Positions 3,001 through 15,000 of a DNA stretch of 64,000 nt are shown piece after piece; positions within the stretch are counted from its first letter, which is position 1, and each line of letters opens with the position of its first letter. The stretch is from Escherichia coli O157:H7. GTDB taxonomy: Bacteria > Pseudomonadota > Gammaproteobacteria > Enterobacterales > Enterobacteriaceae. The stretch lies in assembly GCF_013167455.1 (NCBI RefSeq), contig NZ_CP038328.1, one strand, 5' to 3'. The position numbers are program-made.

Positions 3001-6000
3001 TGGTACTCGAAGCGCTGTGCATGGCGATTATTCCGTTCTTTGTGAATCGGGTAGGGCCAAAAAATGCATTACTTATCGGTGTTGTGATTATGGCGTTGCG
3101 TATCCTTTCCTGCGCGCTGTTCGTTAACCCCTGGATTATTTCATTAGTGAAGCTGTTACATGCCATTGAGGTTCCACTTTGTGTCATATCCGTCTTCAAA
3201 TACAGCGTGGCAAACTTTGATAAGCGCCTGTCGTCGACGATCTTTCTGATTGGTTTTCAAATTGCCAGTTCGCTTGGGATTGTGCTGCTTTCAACGCCGA
3301 CTGGGATACTCTTTGACCACGCAGGCTACCAGACAGTTTTCTTCGCAATTTCGGGTATTGTCTGCCTGATGTTGCTATTTGGCATTTTCTTCCTGAGTAA
3401 AAAACGCGAGCAAATAGTTATGGAAACGCCTGTACCTTCAGCAATATAGACGTAAACTTTTTCCGGTTGTTGTCGATATCTCCATATCCTTCAACCGGAA
3501 AATAATAATACTAAAATGCTTAGCCCTGCTAATAATCGCCTAATCCAAACACCTCATTCATGTTCTGGTACAGTCGCTCAAATGTACTCCGGATACACGG
3601 TTCGCTGATTTCCAGGACATTGTCGTCATTCTGCGACCTGTCCCGTGTATCACGGGCCTGCGAATTCATCAAGGAATGCATTGCGGAGTGAAGTATCGAG
3701 TCACGCCGTATTTCGCTATCAGGATTCTGTGTGATGGTTACATCGCCCGGCCCTGGGCTGTTTAGTCATCAGCGCTTTCTGACAGTGCTGAGATTTCAAC
3801 CTGTTGCAGTAAAAATGAGTAGATATAGGGCAAGTGTGCTGCCAAACCCATCGTTTACGGGATGAAGGTAGATTTGGTTTGAAGGGTATCTGGTGTCCCT
3901 GCAGGAATCGAAAAATTAGCTAACAATTTGAATTGTAGTTTATTTCTCTTTCGATTTTGGTGAGTGCCCCAATAGGTGCCCCCAAGCGTTGTGATCAGAA
4001 ATGCTGGTTTTTACCTGATGAAACAAGCCTGACGACCTTTCAAATTTTATTCTGATTTTACGATCAATAGCTCGTTTTTTATCCGGTAGTAAGTCGCTCG
4101 GCTGATTCCTGCTGCCTTCATGATGAGTTCAGGTTTTACTCCTTGCTCCAACATCTCTCTAACGATCTCTCGGGCTTCCTGATTTTTCGCCCTCCCAATG
4201 TATATGCCTTCGCTTTTAGCTCGTTCAATGCCTTGCTGTTGGCGTTTACGGCGTGTTTCGTAATCCTGCCGTGCCATTGTGGCAAGGATATCAATCAACA
4301 TGGCATTTACGGCTCTCAGGATGCCGCTGGTTAGATCATTGCCTGCCATCTCGACCATCTGCCAGCTCGTTGGTAAATCCATTGATACGATGATTAACCC
4401 TTTTCGGTTGAGCGTATCTTTCAGTTCGACCCATGCACTATGTTCTAGGCGACTCAGACGATCTATAGCTTCCACTAGCAACAGATCGCCGGACTGGGCT
4501 TCAGACAATAGCCGCATAAGCTCTACGCGCTCAAGCTTCGCCCCGCTAGCATTTTCTATATACTCTCCTGCAATCTGCCAGCCTTTTGATTTTGAAAATT
4601 CACGTAGGCTGGTAAGTGCTCGATCAGCGTGTTGCCCCTCAGTTGATGCTCGGCAGTAAATTCTAACGTTCATTGCATTGTCTCAAAAGGGTTGTGAATA
4701 TAAGTGCAAATGATACATAATGCAGTTTGTGTAGTCAAAATGTTCCTATACAACCCTATTGAGACTTTGTATCACCTTGTCATTACGGTATACCCAATTG
4801 AGACAATGATAACGGCTGGTGTTTAAGGTGATATATTGAGCTAGCCGAAAGAAACAGCCCGACACCGTTTTTACCGTATGAGATAATTTGTTGTGCTGGT
4901 GGGGTTGCTTGCCAGTACTTGGAATGGTACAAATCTGTACCATTGTTCGACGGTCTATTAACAAGGAGTGTTAAGATGGAAAAAGACCTGAAAGAGTTGC
5001 GGGAATACCTATTACTTTCCCCCGTCTATTCTGAAATTAACGATTGTCTGGCTAGTCTCTCAATGGAAGACGTGACCAATGAAGAGTTCGCGGAACGTTT
5101 GGGAATTGCTCCTGATTGGATGGATGCTATAGATACTAGCCAACTTGCTTAAGAAAGGATGCGCCATTGCTGGGCGCGTTTCTCATTTCTCCCGTAGCAC
5201 TACGCATACCTTCTAATAAATTTCACCATCAAAATCAGTAGATTGATAAAATGTCACTCAAATCTGTCATAAGTATCACAATTTTTAAACCTAATTGAAA
5301 TATAATGTTATTAGATATTATCTAATGGAGGTAGTTTAATGTCTTATGCGTTGATTGATAATGCTTCGTTAACAGCAGTCGAAAGAACACTGGGTGATAT
5401 TCTTGTTAAGAATCCAGATACTATTAACGGAGATTTAGTCGCTTTTGAAAATCTTATTCAAGCGATACTTTTTTACGATACCCTGATCTGTGTAGATAAT
5501 TATAAAAAAGAATATAGAGATAAACGCATTGCTAAATTTGACTTTATTAAATTTGTATCTGAAAGTGATTTTCAACTCAGTGAACTTGATCAGTTAGCAC
5601 AAGTTGAATCTCGGCAAATTACTTCCGAAATTAGAGGTGGGGAGTTTGTTGACGATGATTTTAGGCAACTTGTAGAGATGCTTAAGCTGAATATGATTTG
5701 CACATGGGATCTTCGGTCTAGCGTGTATTACTTAACAATGAAAATGCTTGGTCAGCCCGGTACTCCTGAATATGCGAAATATAGTGAACTAAGTGCATCG
5801 ATTTTTAATGAATTATCAGATGCTTCTGATACGAAAGGGTACTGGTCAACCGATGTGAAGCTAGTGAGTTCATCTGGACATGAATATACTGAGCGTGAAT
5901 TTGAACTAGAAAGGGAAAAATCTACTCGCGGTAAAGGAGGTATGACTCGTTCACTTGAAATGTTTATCGCATCGCTAAATTGGTTGGCATATAAATCTAT

Positions 6001-12000: not shown

Positions 12001-15000
12001 TAAAGGAATTGTTGTTAGACGAAGCCTTTTTCGCCTTTACCGGATCGATGCCAACCGAGATGTCTTTCCTCGCAGTCCATGCTTTATCCCTTGCCTCTTG
12101 CAAAGTCATAAGCGGATATTTTCCGACGGTCAGGATTTTCTCCTTACCGTCAATCTTGTAGCGAAGCTGCCATACCTTTTTCCCTGATACAGGGACATAA
12201 AGGTACAGGCCATTACCATCGAGTAGGCGGTATGGTTTTTCTTTCGGCTTTGCTGCTTCAATCTGCTTAACGGTGAGCATGGGTAAAAATCCGGTGGGTA
12301 AAATTATTTTATCCACTTTTTACCCGTCATGGCGTGCGGCTGTCAACGATCTGACGCGAACCATGACGAACTGTGAATCTACGGAAGGCTTGATATTCAG
12401 GGGATTTTGCGGACTGGTACGGATGGAGGCGAACTGATAAATGGTGTCCCCTGCAGGAATCGAACCTGCAATTAGCCCTTAGGAGGGGCTCGTTATATCC
12501 ATTTAACTAAGAGGACATTGTTGCGTATTGATTTTGGTTGTTCACCATATGACTGATAATACCGTCTTTATGGTTTTAAAATCAAGGTGTAAGTTTGTTT
12601 TTGTTCATGGTTGATTATCTTCTTTTGCGTTGAAAAGTGTTTTGTTCACTTGCTAATGCGTACATATTGAGTACAGAATACATTATAAACTTGTGTACAG
12701 GATATAAAGCATTGGCACTGAGCGACACCAAACTACGAGGCCTCTACGGAAAACCCTACTCTGGCCCTGCTGAAATCACCGATGGTGACGGGTTAAGTGT
12801 GCGGATTACTCCAGCAGGAACTATCACGTTTCAGTACCGTTATCGCTGGAATGGTAAGCCAGTACGTCTTACTGTCGGGCGCTATCCGTCTACTTCACTG
12901 AAGGACGCGCGTGTTATCGTCGGTGAGATGCGCGCATTGTACATGAAGGGAGTTAACCCTAAAAATTATTTTGCGCCCAGTGACGGCGAACTGACATTAA
13001 AAGAATGCCTGGATCAGTGGTGGGATAAGTATGTTACTGATCTGAAACCCAATACACAGACGCTTTACAGATCCGTCGTGTACAACACTATGTACACACA
13101 GTTTGAAGGCTCGCCAGTTGCCAGTATCCCAGTATCGGCATGGGCTCGTTTCTTTGACAAACAAGAAAGCCTCAACAAGAAAAAGGCTCGTGTTTTGTTG
13201 TTACAACTGCGTTCAGTTATTAACTGGTGTATCAGCCGCCAGTTAATCCCATCATGCGAATTACTCAAGCTTAGTGTTAAGAATATTGGGAAAAAACCAG
13301 ATGTAGGGAGTCGTGTACTTACCTATACGGAACTGGCAAAAATTTGGCTGGCGCTGGAGAACTCAAAAGTAGTTACTTCCAACAAGGTGTTACATCAATT
13401 GCTATTGCTATGGGGGGCCAGACTTTCTGAGCTACGTCTCGCGACAGCCAGTGAGTTCAACATGGAAGATCTGGTCTGGACAACCCCAAAAGAGCATTCA
13501 AAAATGGGGAATATTATCCGGCGTCCGGTATTCACTCAGGTTAAACCTTATATCGAGAGATTGCTTAATGCGGGTTTTGATGTGCTATTCCCCGGGCAGG
13601 AAATAGATAAACCTATTGATCGTTCGTCGGCTAATTTGTACATGAAAAAGTTAAGGGAGAAAATTGATATTCCTGAATGGAGAACGCATGATTTTAGGCG
13701 TTCTCTGGTAACGAATTTATCTGGGGAAGGAATTATGCCCCACGTCACTGAAAAAATGCTGGGGCATGAACTTGGGGGAGTTATGGCCGTGTATAATAAA
13801 CACGACTGGTTGTCGGAACAGAAAGATGCGTATGAGTTGTATGCTGATAAAATTTTCTGGCACGCTAAACAACTCGGTTAATTCCTCCGGCTTTAAGCCA
13901 TTGTTCAACGGCCTGACGACTATATCGCGCCGGATGAGTAAGTACTGGTTCCGGGAATCCGTGTTTTTTTCGCAAATTATACAAAGCTGTGCGCCTTTTT
14001 TGTAACAAATCAGAAACCTCTTTTTCGGTCATTAAGTTGACTTCCATAGTATGCGCTCCTTTTCTACATGTATTTCAACAGCCTGATATCATCCACGCCC
14101 TAAAGGACGTGGATTCCCGCTACGTTCACTCTGACAATTCGTTGATCAAGTCACGGTATTTATTCAGTTCTTGCAACGCCTTACATGCACCCTCCCATCG
14201 TTTCTGTTTCCGCCCGGCGCGGCGCGCTTCTTTCCGTGATTTACGTAGCAGGTCGCCTATAATGTTGTGCTGCACTGGCTGCACTGGCTGCACTGGCTGC
14301 ACTGGCTGCACTGGCTGCACTGGCTGCACTGGCTGCACTGGCTGCACTGGCTGCACTGAGGCGATATTTGGTTTTTTGTCCACTTCCCTTGCAACTGCCT
14401 GCCAGATGCCATTTTTTACAGTTACTACCCCCTGGTTTTTTAACTTCCATAGAGTGTCAATAACGTCATTCAAATCAATATTGAGACCTTTAGAAATACT
14501 TTCGGCTGATGCTTTTCCTAATTTGTTCAATTCTGTGAGCACTGCGTTCGTTTTTTTCTCCTGATATTTTAATGTCGGTGGGGCTGTTATACGGTTGGTG
14601 AGGTGTCAGCTTCTTCTACCAGCTTTTCCAGTTCATCCAGCTTTCGGGAAAGAATTTCACCAAACAGATGAAGTTCTGCATCTGCTGTAATCGGGATTGG
14701 AACAAATCGTATTCCACTTCTGGCAAGTTGATTTGCGATTTCCAGACACTGCCTTAATTCAACTGGTGATGCCTTTGTCAACGTCGTTTTTTCGCTCATT
14801 GGTTTTCTCCAGAAATTTAACAATACCCGGAACCATCTCAATGGATGGTGTGCCGCATTGGTTACCCCATACATCAAATCCATGCGAGGTGTGGCGGGCG
14901 AACAGTTCTATCCGGGGAACATCGCCAAGAAGTTGCACAAGTTTTTCTCGAGCCATATCCGGCTTGCGGGAGTGATCAAGGCGTGGTGCAGTGAATGACT

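What the first reader, a model, noticed from the sequence alone, without database searches (positions are those of the whole stretch)
3891..12515. argW-linked island bounded by a 22-nt tRNA 3'-end direct repeat: degraded Sf6/CPS-53-like prophage remnant
The intact argW gene (12441-12515, minus) is directly followed by an IntS-like integrase gene. A 22-nt imperfect copy of the tRNA 3' end lies at 3891-3912, giving the classic attL/attR arrangement of a tRNA-integrated element about 8.5 kb long. Inside are only fragments of phage structural genes plus foreign cargo, so the element looks decayed and unlikely to excise as a functional phage. The csc sucrose genes lie immediately outside the distal att remnant.
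Basis: partly seen in the sequence, partly recalled or inferred. Interest (0 to 1): 0.45.

Follow-up and report, generated by a model that had tools for sequence, protein, structure and literature searches.

The report
Sp16: two fused argW elements
The island is the already-annotated, non-excising O157:H7 prophage remnant Sp16; the one new point is that it is not one decayed phage but the fused leftovers of two different elements that once sat in tandem at the argW tRNA gene.

Summary
tRNA-Arg(CCT) lies at 12442-12516 (-). A 22-nt copy of its 3' end (22 of 23, one C deleted) lies at 3891-3912. 1,415 of 5,426 complete E. coli genomes hold at least 80% of a synthetic empty-site sequence, and every listed hit carries it as one uninterrupted piece, so both boundaries are exact.

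The island is known. It is 100% identical (0 mismatches in 8,552 nt) to Sakai "prophage Sp16; P22-like phage", which is published as severely degraded, Xis-less and non-excising.

Sp16 is a chimera.
- Window 8140-12441 is the argW-proximal end of an Sf6/HK620/KplE1-type P22-like prophage. It has an intact IntS (98% aa identity to Sf6 Int), an Sf6-type attL arm and ejection genes. One ejection gene is fused to an acyltransferase fragment.
- Window 3891-8139 is collinear at 97.9% with the distal end of a different ~8-kb argW island. That island has a P4-type integrase, an AlpA-like protein, an HUH Rep, a variable cargo slot and a serine recombinase. It is present in 241 genomes.
- The distal repeat is that island's attR (a 23-nt repeat type), not an Sf6-type attR (a 16-nt core plus the torI arm).

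Intact tandems of the two elements exist, and the predicted middle junction occurs in 36 genomes. Mismatched att sites and the lack of TorI explain why Sp16 is immobile. Interest is low to moderate.

The parts
3529..3711 (-). DUF4942 gene fragment in the conserved chromosomal flank between cscB and the att site. It is outside the element.
   Evidence: RefSeq annotation of the identical TW14359 sequence. The same fragment sits next to argW in empty-site strains (L005).
3891..3912 (.). Distal direct repeat. It is the attR of the small argW island: 22 of the 23-nt repeat TGGTGTCCCCTGCAGGAATCGAA, with one C deleted.
   Evidence: Intact relatives carry a perfect 23-nt copy with the same inner flank GAAAAATTAGCTAA. 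It is not the Sf6/KplE1-type attR.
4047..4673 (-). Serine recombinase (DNA-invertase/resolvase type, 208 aa), intact. It is the terminal gene of the small island.
   Evidence: phrog_125 DNA invertase, E = 8e-41. It holds the same position next to attR in L009-L013 and L015.
4976..5152 (+). 58-aa ORF (ECs3239) upstream of the cargo gene. Function unknown.
   Evidence: Annotated in TW14359 and Sakai. No significant Pfam match.
5339..6751 (+). 470-aa cargo protein (ECs3238) in the variable slot of the small island. Function unknown. G+C about 35-37%.
   Evidence: No Pfam, NCBIfam or PADLOC match and no phage tblastn hit. 233 homologues, the best 120 at 54-85% identity (one 100% E. coli partial aside), across Gamma- and Betaproteobacteria. 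In Stutzerimonas it lies beside an integron-type integrase. The structure model is poor (pLDDT 55) and gives no fold match.
7421..8139 (-). 5'-truncated HUH rolling-circle Rep gene of the small island (ORF 7421-8116). Small-island homology ends at 8139.
   Evidence: Full-length relatives are 285-350 aa and match Pfam PF23343 REP_ORF2-G2P. About 111 N-terminal codons are missing here.
8140..8668 (+). 3' part of a P22/Sf6-type tail-needle (knob) gene. Deletion junction 1 lies at 8139|8140.
   Evidence: phrog_1030 tail needle knob, profile positions 83-256 only. The three-way alignment switches from the small island to phage Louie exactly at this point.
8668..9135 (+). P22 gp14 / Sf6 gp10-like protein (DUF2824), intact.
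   Evidence: phrog_651, the annotation, and synteny with Sf6 genes 9-12.
9122..9802 (+). P22 gp7 / Sf6 gp11-like DNA ejection protein, intact.
   Evidence: phrog_598, E = 9e-88.
9812..10948 (+). Chimeric ORF (378 aa). Residues 1-217 are the N-terminal half of a P22 gp20 / Sf6 gp12-like ejection protein. Residues 219-364 are the C-terminal part of a membrane O-acetyltransferase. Deletion junction 2 lies at about 10461|10462.
   Evidence: phrog_917/2534 match residues 1-217 and phrog_3333 O-acetyltransferase matches 219-364. Residues 222-362 (8-148 of the 164-aa C-terminal query) are 38% identical to the TL-2011b O-acetyltransferase. Phage homology stops at 10461. G+C falls to 29%.
11123..12280 (-). 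intS (also called intC), an intact IntS-type tyrosine integrase of 385 aa.
   Evidence: 375 of 384 residues identical to Sf6 Int. 97% nucleotide identity to Sf6, CUS-3 and HK620 int.
12281..12441 (.). Sf6/KplE1-type attL arm, the region that holds the intS promoter and the IntS/TorI arm sites in KplE1.
   Evidence: The last 40 nt are identical to the int-side arm of Sf6 attP. Function is taken from KplE1 work (PMC2951348).
12442..12516 (-). argW, tRNA-Arg(CCT), intact. Its 3' end (12442-12464) is the proximal copy of the repeat.
   Evidence: ARAGORN. Identical to Sakai argW.
12493..12517 (.). Context only: attL core of the neighbouring Stx2a prophage, which overlaps the 5' end of argW.
   Evidence: 100% identity to HQ424691 (VT2phi_272), where this stretch is annotated attL.

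Best explanation
The 8.55-kb island between argW and csc is Sakai prophage Sp16. It is the deletion product of two different integrative elements that once sat in tandem at the 3' end of argW. The argW-proximal element was an Sf6/HK620/KplE1-type P22-like temperate phage. Its order was intS, an O-antigen acyltransferase, tailspike, ejection genes, needle, then the rest of the phage, ending in torI. The distal element was a compact ~8-kb island. Its order was a P4-type integrase, an AlpA-like regulator or excisionase, an HUH Rep, a variable cargo slot and a serine recombinase, flanked by a 23-nt repeat of the tRNA end. One deletion of roughly 32 kb, sized on the intact tandem L015, ran from inside the island's rep gene to inside the phage tail-needle gene. 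It removed the small island's integrase and regulators, the middle att site, torI and nearly all of the phage. A second deletion fused the gp20-like ejection gene to the 3' part of the acyltransferase gene and removed the gp16-like gene and the tailspike. What remains is an intact IntS with its own attL, paired with a foreign attR. That attR carries a 1-nt deletion in the core and lacks the torI-side arm. No recombination directionality factor is left. The element is therefore locked in the chromosome and inherited vertically across the O55:H7/O157:H7 lineage. The sequence relationships, breakpoints, empty site and tandem junction are shown. The order of the two integrations, the single-step nature of the large deletion and the mechanistic cause of immobility are inferred.
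For: Identity with Sp16: 0 mismatches in 8,552 nt, and the Sakai feature 3193118-3201668 maps to window 3890-12440.
Boundaries: the empty-site sequence is found as one piece in every listed hit, and 1,415 genomes cover at least 80% of it.
Phage half: IntS is 98% identical to Sf6 Int. The attL arm is identical to Sf6 attP, and Sf6 homology ends exactly after the 16-nt core. The needle, gp14, gp7 and gp20 homologues are in Sf6 order and 91-95% identical to phages Louie and 720R6.
Small-island half: window 3400-8139 is collinear at 97.9% with strain JNE131328. There the same recombinase, 58-aa ORF, 470-aa ORF and rep continue into AlpA-like genes and a 428-aa integrase next to argW. Four other cargo types sit between the same conserved arms. 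The small-island integrase is only 31% identical to IntS.
Breakpoints: 8139|8140 and about 10461|10462.
Att types: the small island has a 23-nt perfect repeat with the inner flank GAAAAATTAGC, as in the window. Sf6, HK620 and K-12 attR have a 16-nt core followed by acatctactt and torI (PMC2951348).
Tandems exist: the predicted middle junction is found as one piece in 36 genomes. A complete small island plus a full P22-like prophage is seen in strain 2779.
Missing functions: tblastn finds no TorI, small-island Int or AlpA in the window.
Experiment: Sp16 has integrase present, excisionase absent and replication defective, and no excision was detected (PMC2669165; PMC5359411).
Fixation: all 308 genomes carrying the acyltransferase fragment match at 99% or more, including O55:H7 DEC5B.
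Against: No genome in the O55/O157 lineage retains the undeleted tandem, so the tandem ancestor is inferred from other lineages. The order of integration cannot be read from the structure, because either order gives the same arrangement. The same end product could also have arisen by homologous recombination that imported an already-chimeric segment. The full-length source of the acyltransferase fragment was not found in complete E. coli genomes at megablast sensitivity. Its assignment to the same phage therefore rests on position and on the TL-2011b precedent of a tailspike followed by an O-acetyltransferase. Whether IntS could still act on the mismatched sites with an RDF supplied in trans was not tested.
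Confidence: 0.85

Rival explanations
1. A single Sf6/CPS-53-like prophage integrated at argW and decayed in place. The 22-nt repeat is its own attR, and the recombinase and hypothetical genes are foreign cargo inserted later.
For: IntS and the attL arm are Sf6-type. P22-like virion gene fragments are present. The repeat marks the true boundary.
Against: The distal repeat is followed by small-island sequence, not the Sf6/KplE1 torI-side arm. Identity to the tRNA runs 22 of 23 nt rather than 16. The whole of 3891-8139, attR included, is collinear at about 98% with an intact, independent island that has its own integrase. Neither the 470-aa nor the Rep protein has any tblastn hit in 50,697 phage records.
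Confidence: 0.05
2. The chimera did not arise by deletion within a resident tandem. It arose by illegitimate or homologous recombination during horizontal import: an ancestor that carried only the small island received a fragment carrying argW, intS and the ejection genes, or the reverse.
For: The argW-dsd/csc region is described as a recombination hotspot with many configurations (PMC11251922). No undeleted tandem was seen in the O55/O157 lineage. Junction 1 shows no extended microhomology.
Against: Tandems of exactly these two element types are common (36 genomes). Other independent deletion derivatives of such tandems exist: PK8568 and 357900 (H191). In-place deletion is therefore the simpler route. 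The end product and its functional consequences are the same under either route.
Confidence: 0.1
3. Sp16 is still a mobile unit. IntS could recombine the two core copies, perhaps with an RDF supplied by another prophage, so the island excises at low frequency.
For: intS is intact. The homologous promoter is active and autoregulated in EDL933 (PMC2951348). 15 of the 16 core nucleotides are present at the distal site.
Against: There is no TorI in the window. The distal site lacks the cognate arm and has a 1-nt deletion in the core. No excision, replication or packaging of Sp16 was detected experimentally (PMC2669165). The island is about 100% conserved in 308 genomes.
Confidence: 0.03

Closest known systems
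Sakai prophage Sp16 (E. coli O157:H7, Hayashi et al. 2001 annotation; analysed in Asadulghani et al. 2009, PMC2669165)
   Same: It is the same element. The sequence is 100% identical, the boundaries match (Sakai 3193118-3201668 equals window 3890-12440), and the genes are ECs3231-ECs3240.
   Different: Nothing differs in sequence. The published descriptions found here call it 'P22-like' or say it cannot be assigned to a phage family because its backbone is chimeric or highly disrupted. In the papers read, I did not find it resolved into an IntS-type phage end plus a separate small argW island end.
KplE1/CPS-53 of E. coli K-12 and phages Sf6, HK620 and CUS-3 (the IntS-TorI recombination module at argW)
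   Same: The integrase is of the same family (98% aa identity to Sf6 Int). The integration site is the same, at the 3' end of argW. The int-side attP/attL arm is identical. int lies next to argW, followed by an O-antigen modification gene.
   Different: KplE1, Sf6 and HK620 have a 16-nt core, and torI with the cognate arm at the distal end. KplE1 still excises (PMC2951348). Sp16 has lost torI and that arm, and its distal site comes from another element.
Small argW island (P4-type Int, AlpA-like protein, HUH Rep, variable cargo, serine recombinase), e.g. NZ_AP027212 2732136-2740200. I found no published name for it.
   Same: Window 3891-8139 is its distal part, with the same attR, recombinase, cargo and rep at about 98% identity.
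   Different: Sp16 lacks the island's integrase, four small regulatory ORFs and the 5' third of rep. Its attR has a 1-nt deletion.
P4-like satellites and PICI-type islands with variable accessory 'hotspots'
   Same: A tRNA-targeting P4-family integrase with an arm-binding domain, an AlpA-like small regulator, a replication initiator, small size, and a slot whose content differs between otherwise conserved copies.
   Different: No capsid-redirecting, packaging or primase-helicase genes were found. The replication protein is an HUH (rolling-circle or relaxase-like) enzyme. None of the cargos matches a PADLOC defence model. Membership is not established.

Membership tests
tRNA-integrated genomic island / prophage | An intact tRNA gene at one end, with an integrase gene directly downstream of its 3' end | tested here: met
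   argW at 12442-12516 and intS at 11123-12280.
tRNA-integrated genomic island / prophage | A direct repeat of the tRNA 3' end at the far boundary | tested here: met
   22 of 23 nt at 3891-3912. It is unique in the window, with 0.03 matches expected by chance.
tRNA-integrated genomic island / prophage | Strains with an empty site show the two flanks joined at a single copy of the repeat | tested here: met
   The synthetic empty site is found as a single piece in every listed hit, and 1,415 of 5,426 genomes cover at least 80% of it.
Sakai prophage Sp16 | Sequence identity and the same boundaries as the annotated feature | tested here: met
   0 mismatches in 8,552 nt, and the feature coordinates map to window 3890-12440.
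IntS-TorI (Sf6/HK620/KplE1) prophage | An IntS-family integrase with the cognate int-side att arm | tested here: met
   98% aa identity to Sf6 Int, and a 40-nt arm identical to Sf6 attP.
IntS-TorI (Sf6/HK620/KplE1) prophage | A distal attR made of the 16-nt core followed by the torI-side arm, with a torI/xis gene | tested here: not met
   The distal site is followed by small-island sequence. tblastn finds no TorI in the window. Compare Sf6, HK620 and K-12.
IntS-TorI (Sf6/HK620/KplE1) prophage | A P22-like virion and early gene set | tested here: not met
   Only the needle 3' fragment, gp14-like and gp7-like genes and half of a gp20-like gene remain. This counts as a remnant, not a member with a functional gene set.
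Small argW island (Int, AlpA, HUH Rep, cargo, Ser recombinase) | A 23-nt repeat with the island-specific inner flank and the serine recombinase next to attR | tested here: met
   Same flank and same gene. The repeat has one deleted C.
Small argW island (Int, AlpA, HUH Rep, cargo, Ser recombinase) | Its own P4-type integrase, AlpA-like regulator and full-length Rep | tested here: not met
   Int and AlpA are absent. Rep lacks about 111 N-terminal codons.
Anti-phage defence hotspot cargo | The cargo proteins match known defence systems or are shown to protect against phage | tested here: not met
   PADLOC gives no significant match for the 470-aa protein or for four other cargos. Protection was not testable here.

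The most novel reading that the evidence does not exclude
The distal half of Sp16 may be a relic of an apparently undescribed family of ~8-10 kb argW-specific mobile islands. Each has a P4-type integrase, an AlpA-like protein, an HUH Rep and a serine recombinase. A single slot between rep and the recombinase carries interchangeable cargo, and five different cargos were seen in six sampled loci. The cargo fixed in all O55:H7/O157:H7 strains is a 58-aa plus 470-aa gene pair with no recognisable domain. The 470-aa gene is 54-85% conserved across distant Proteobacteria and also sits directly beside an integron-type integrase, as a first cassette would. It may be an unrecognised accessory function, such as anti-phage or competition, that explains why this fragment was retained.
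Probability: 0.25. Interest if true: 0.55.

Novelty: already known. Interest (0 to 1): 0.27.

Why it matters
The island itself is a catalogued feature of O157:H7, so the finding adds nothing as a discovery. Three things are of modest value.
1. The work shows a worked example of how two elements sharing one tRNA site can be welded by internal deletion into a hybrid. The hybrid's two att sites no longer match its surviving integrase. This gives a concrete, sequence-level reason for the experimentally observed immobility of Sp16.
2. It corrects the label 'P22-like prophage with foreign cargo'. Half of the island comes from a different element.
3. It points to a small argW island family, present in 241 of 5,426 complete E. 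coli genomes, with a swappable cargo slot. The contents of that slot, including the O157 gene ECs3238, are entirely uncharacterised.

It also documents that argW in this strain is bracketed by integrated DNA on both sides. The two elements use the 3' and the 5' ends of the same tRNA gene.

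Tried and rejected
- The 470-aa cargo protein gave no function by any method. Pfam showed nothing, NCBIfam and PADLOC showed nothing, and tblastn against 50,697 phage records showed nothing. AlphaFold2 with 28 homologues gave a mean pLDDT of only 55. A Foldseek search of the PDB gave no hit below E = 0.1.
- The Rep fragment (231 aa) had no Pfam match and no phage tblastn hit. Only the full-length relative gave PF23343.
- The defence-hotspot idea was tested with PADLOC and NCBIfam on the HNH, ParA, GTPase and 821+330-aa cargos. 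Only ParA-type ATPase similarity appeared, with no defence model.
- The 58-aa ORF has no significant Pfam match.
- I looked for the full-length source of the acyltransferase fragment in complete E. coli genomes. Only Sp16 carriers matched.
- Literature searches for a description of the small island (argW with satellite, defence or hotspot terms, and ECs locus tags) found nothing specific. Moritz & Welch 2006 on the argW-dsdCXA island is not held in the library.
- A search for 'CP-933Y' returned nothing, so I do not assert an EDL933 name for the element.
- Chance as an explanation for the repeat is rejected.

Full report
**1. The observation**

ARAGORN finds a single tRNA in the window, tRNA-Arg(CCT), at 12442-12516 on the minus strand. 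The tRNA 3' end reads TGGTGTCCCCTGCAGGAATCGAA on the plus strand (12442-12464). Window 3891-3912 reads TGGTGTCCCTGCAGGAATCGAA, which is 22 of the 23 nt with one C of the C-run deleted.

The shared 14-mer occurs only at these two places in 64 kb, where shuffles expect 0.03 matches. A short-word BLAST of the argW region finds no other copy above noise. An integrase gene lies directly beside the tRNA 3' end. cscK and cscB lie just outside the distal copy.

**2. The element is Sp16**

The window comes from E. coli O157:H7. The stretch 3890-12441 has 0 mismatches in 8,552 nt to strain Sakai. The Sakai record annotates exactly this interval (3193118-3201668, 8,551 bp) as "prophage Sp16; P22-like phage".

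The literature adds three points.
- Sp16 sits at argW (PMC3519850).
- Asadulghani et al. 2009 could not assign it to a phage family because of a "chimeric or highly disrupted" backbone. They scored integrase as present, excision function as absent and replication as defective, and detected no excision, replication or packaging (PMC2669165).
- A later long-read study lists it among the "fixed" prophages (PMC5359411).

The finding is therefore a rediscovery of a known element.

**3. The boundaries are exact**

I built the sequence expected for an unoccupied site: Sakai yfdC-argW joined to the DNA left of window 3891. 1,415 of 5,426 complete E. coli genomes hold a place covering at least 80% of it. 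Every hit in the listed table is one uninterrupted piece at 100% coverage and about 98.5-99.6% identity.

One example is NZ_CP148578. It reads yfdC, argW, a DUF4942 fragment, cscBKAR, a dsdX fragment and dsdA. The alignment of the empty site, attL and attR shows the classical pattern, with the exchange inside the repeat.

**4. The right half is the end of an Sf6/HK620/KplE1-type P22-like prophage**

- The integrase (11123-12280, 385 aa) is full length and matches Sf6 Int at 375 of 384 residues.
- The DNA from the int gene through the arm to the end of the 16-nt core is 96-97% identical to Sf6, CUS-3, HK620 and relatives. The Sf6 match stops exactly after CTGCAG.
- The 40 nt next to the core are identical to the int-side arm of Sf6 attP.
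- Upstream lie, in Sf6 order, the 3' part of a tail-needle knob gene, a gp14-like gene, a gp7-like ejection gene and a gp20-like gene. They are 91-95% identical to phages Louie and vB_EcoP-720R6.
- The last ORF (9812-10948) is a fusion. Residues 1-217 are the N-terminal half of the gp20-like protein. Residues 219-364 are the C-terminal part of a membrane O-acetyltransferase. PHROG 3333 matches this part at E = 2e-23. Residues 222-362 (positions 8-148 of the 164-aa C-terminal query) are 38% identical to the phage TL-2011b enzyme, which also follows its tailspike gene in the same orientation.
- Phage homology ends at about 10461, and G+C drops to 29% beyond it.

A deletion has therefore removed the rest of the gp20-like gene, the gp16-like gene, the tailspike and the 5' part of the acyltransferase gene.

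**5. The left half belongs to a different element**

Window 3913-8098 has no counterpart in 50,697 phage records at the nucleotide level, nor for its two larger proteins at the protein level. It does have counterparts in non-O157 E. coli, always at argW.

Strain JNE131328 is collinear with window 3400-8139 at 97.9%. There the sequence continues as follows: serine recombinase, 58-aa ORF, 470-aa ORF, a 285-aa "rolling circle replication-associated protein", four small ORFs (one AlpA/excisionase-like, phrog_2790), a 240-aa ORF, a 428-aa tyrosine integrase, and argW.

Other strains keep the two arms at 92-96% identity but carry different genes in between:
- an HNH endonuclease;
- a ParA-type ATPase;
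- a GTPase plus a 152-aa protein;
- an 821-aa plus a 330-aa pair.

The integrase of this island is a P4-type enzyme only 31% identical to IntS. Its Rep carries an HUH motif and matches Pfam PF23343. The int-regulator module is present in 241 of 5,426 genomes.

Each intact copy is flanked by a perfect 23-nt repeat, TGGTGTCCCCTGCAGGAATCGAA. Its distal copy is followed by GAAAAATTAGCTAA..., the same inner flank as in the window.

By contrast, the distal site of the IntS family is the 16-nt core followed by acatctacttgaag... and torI. This holds in Sf6, HK620 and K-12 CPS-53 (16-nt core stated in PMC2951348).

**6. The junction and the tandem model**

Small-island homology ends at 8139 in five independent comparisons. 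Phage homology begins at 8140. A three-way alignment shows the switch at that base. The rep gene has lost about 111 N-terminal codons.

The model predicts that the two elements once lay in tandem, with a middle junction of small-island integrase arm, 16-nt core, and Sf6 torI-side arm. I synthesised that junction. It occurs as a single piece, at 97-98% identity, in 36 genomes.

Strain 2779 has the complete arrangement: cscB, attR, small island, att, torI, a full P22-like prophage and then intS and argW. Two other strains show different deletion derivatives of such tandems: PK8568 and 357900 (H191).

Sized on strain 2779, the Sp16 deletion corresponds to about 32 kb. Which element integrated first cannot be deduced, because both orders give the same map.

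**7. How Sp16 works now**

Sp16 keeps an intact IntS and its autoregulated promoter region. Autoregulation of the EDL933 homologue intC was shown in PMC2951348. The partner site, however, is foreign. It has 15 of the 16 core nucleotides, with a deletion, and none of the torI-side arm.

tblastn finds no TorI, no small-island integrase and no AlpA anywhere in the window. In KplE1, excision needs IntS, TorI and both att regions (PMC2951348). The loss of these parts is therefore a sufficient, though inferred, explanation for the published failure to detect Sp16 excision.

The chimera is old and fixed. All 308 genomes carrying the acyltransferase fragment match at 99% or more, including O55:H7 DEC5B.

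Several ORFs survive intact: the serine recombinase, the 58-aa and 470-aa cargo genes, and the gp14-like and gp7-like genes. The 470-aa gene (ECs3238) is transcribed under at least one condition (PMC4940412). Its function is unknown.
- It has no domain, defence-model or fold match.
- It has 233 homologues. The best 120 are 54-85% identical (one 100% E. coli partial aside) and are spread patchily across Gamma- and Betaproteobacteria.
- In Stutzerimonas it lies first beside an integron-type integrase.

**8. Verdict**

The element is already known as Sp16. The added value is the resolution of Sp16 into two parent elements with mismatched att sites, and the pointer to a small argW island family with a swappable, uncharacterised cargo slot.

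Noticed in passing
window 12493-13881 and onward to 64000 (stxA at 36342-37298): A Stx2a prophage of the VT2phi_272/PA2 type lies on the other side of argW. Its integrase is at 12637-13881. Its annotated attL core is the 5' 24-25 nt of the tRNA gene (12493-12517). argW is therefore bracketed by integrated DNA at both ends, and its promoter region is phage DNA. The phage attR lies beyond the window, at about 76 kb.
   Followed up: partly
window 5299-5321 and 6825-6847: A 23-nt imperfect inverted repeat (78% complementary) brackets the 470-aa cargo ORF, inside the variable slot of the small island. It may be a cassette boundary or recombinase site, or it may be chance.
   Followed up: no
window 7015-7040 and 7108-7129: Iteron-like TTGACGT repeats and an inverted repeat lie in the conserved arm just downstream of the truncated HUH rep gene. 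This is a candidate replication origin of the small island.
   Followed up: no
window 3529-3711: A DUF4942 gene fragment lies between cscB and the att site. It is also present in strains with an empty argW site (L005 6547-6699). It is therefore an older remnant in the conserved flank rather than part of Sp16.
   Followed up: partly
NZ_CP038859.1 2536919-2537333 (hit H191) and L014 (NZ_CP080126.1) 19529-20944: These look like other, independent deletion chimeras of the same two argW elements. One has the small-island rep next to a phage ead/Ea22-like gene. The other has a truncated small-island integrase next to torI and ejection-gene fragments. This suggests that such tandem-collapse events recur.
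   Followed up: partly
L017-L019 8001-9401 (Stutzerimonas) and L016 8001-9428 (Dickeya solani): Homologues of the 470-aa cargo protein (70-85% identity) occur as the first gene beside an integron-type integrase, followed by an array of small ORFs. In Dickeya the gene is solitary and preceded by a 72-aa DUF6979 protein. This indicates a gene that moves between very different mobile contexts.
   Followed up: partly
window 1-3449 (with Sakai L004 36000-38802): The cscRAKB sucrose genes replace dsdC and most of dsdX: a dsdX fragment and an intact dsdA follow in Sakai. This is the known csc/dsd alternative arrangement at this hotspot (PMC11251922).
   Followed up: no
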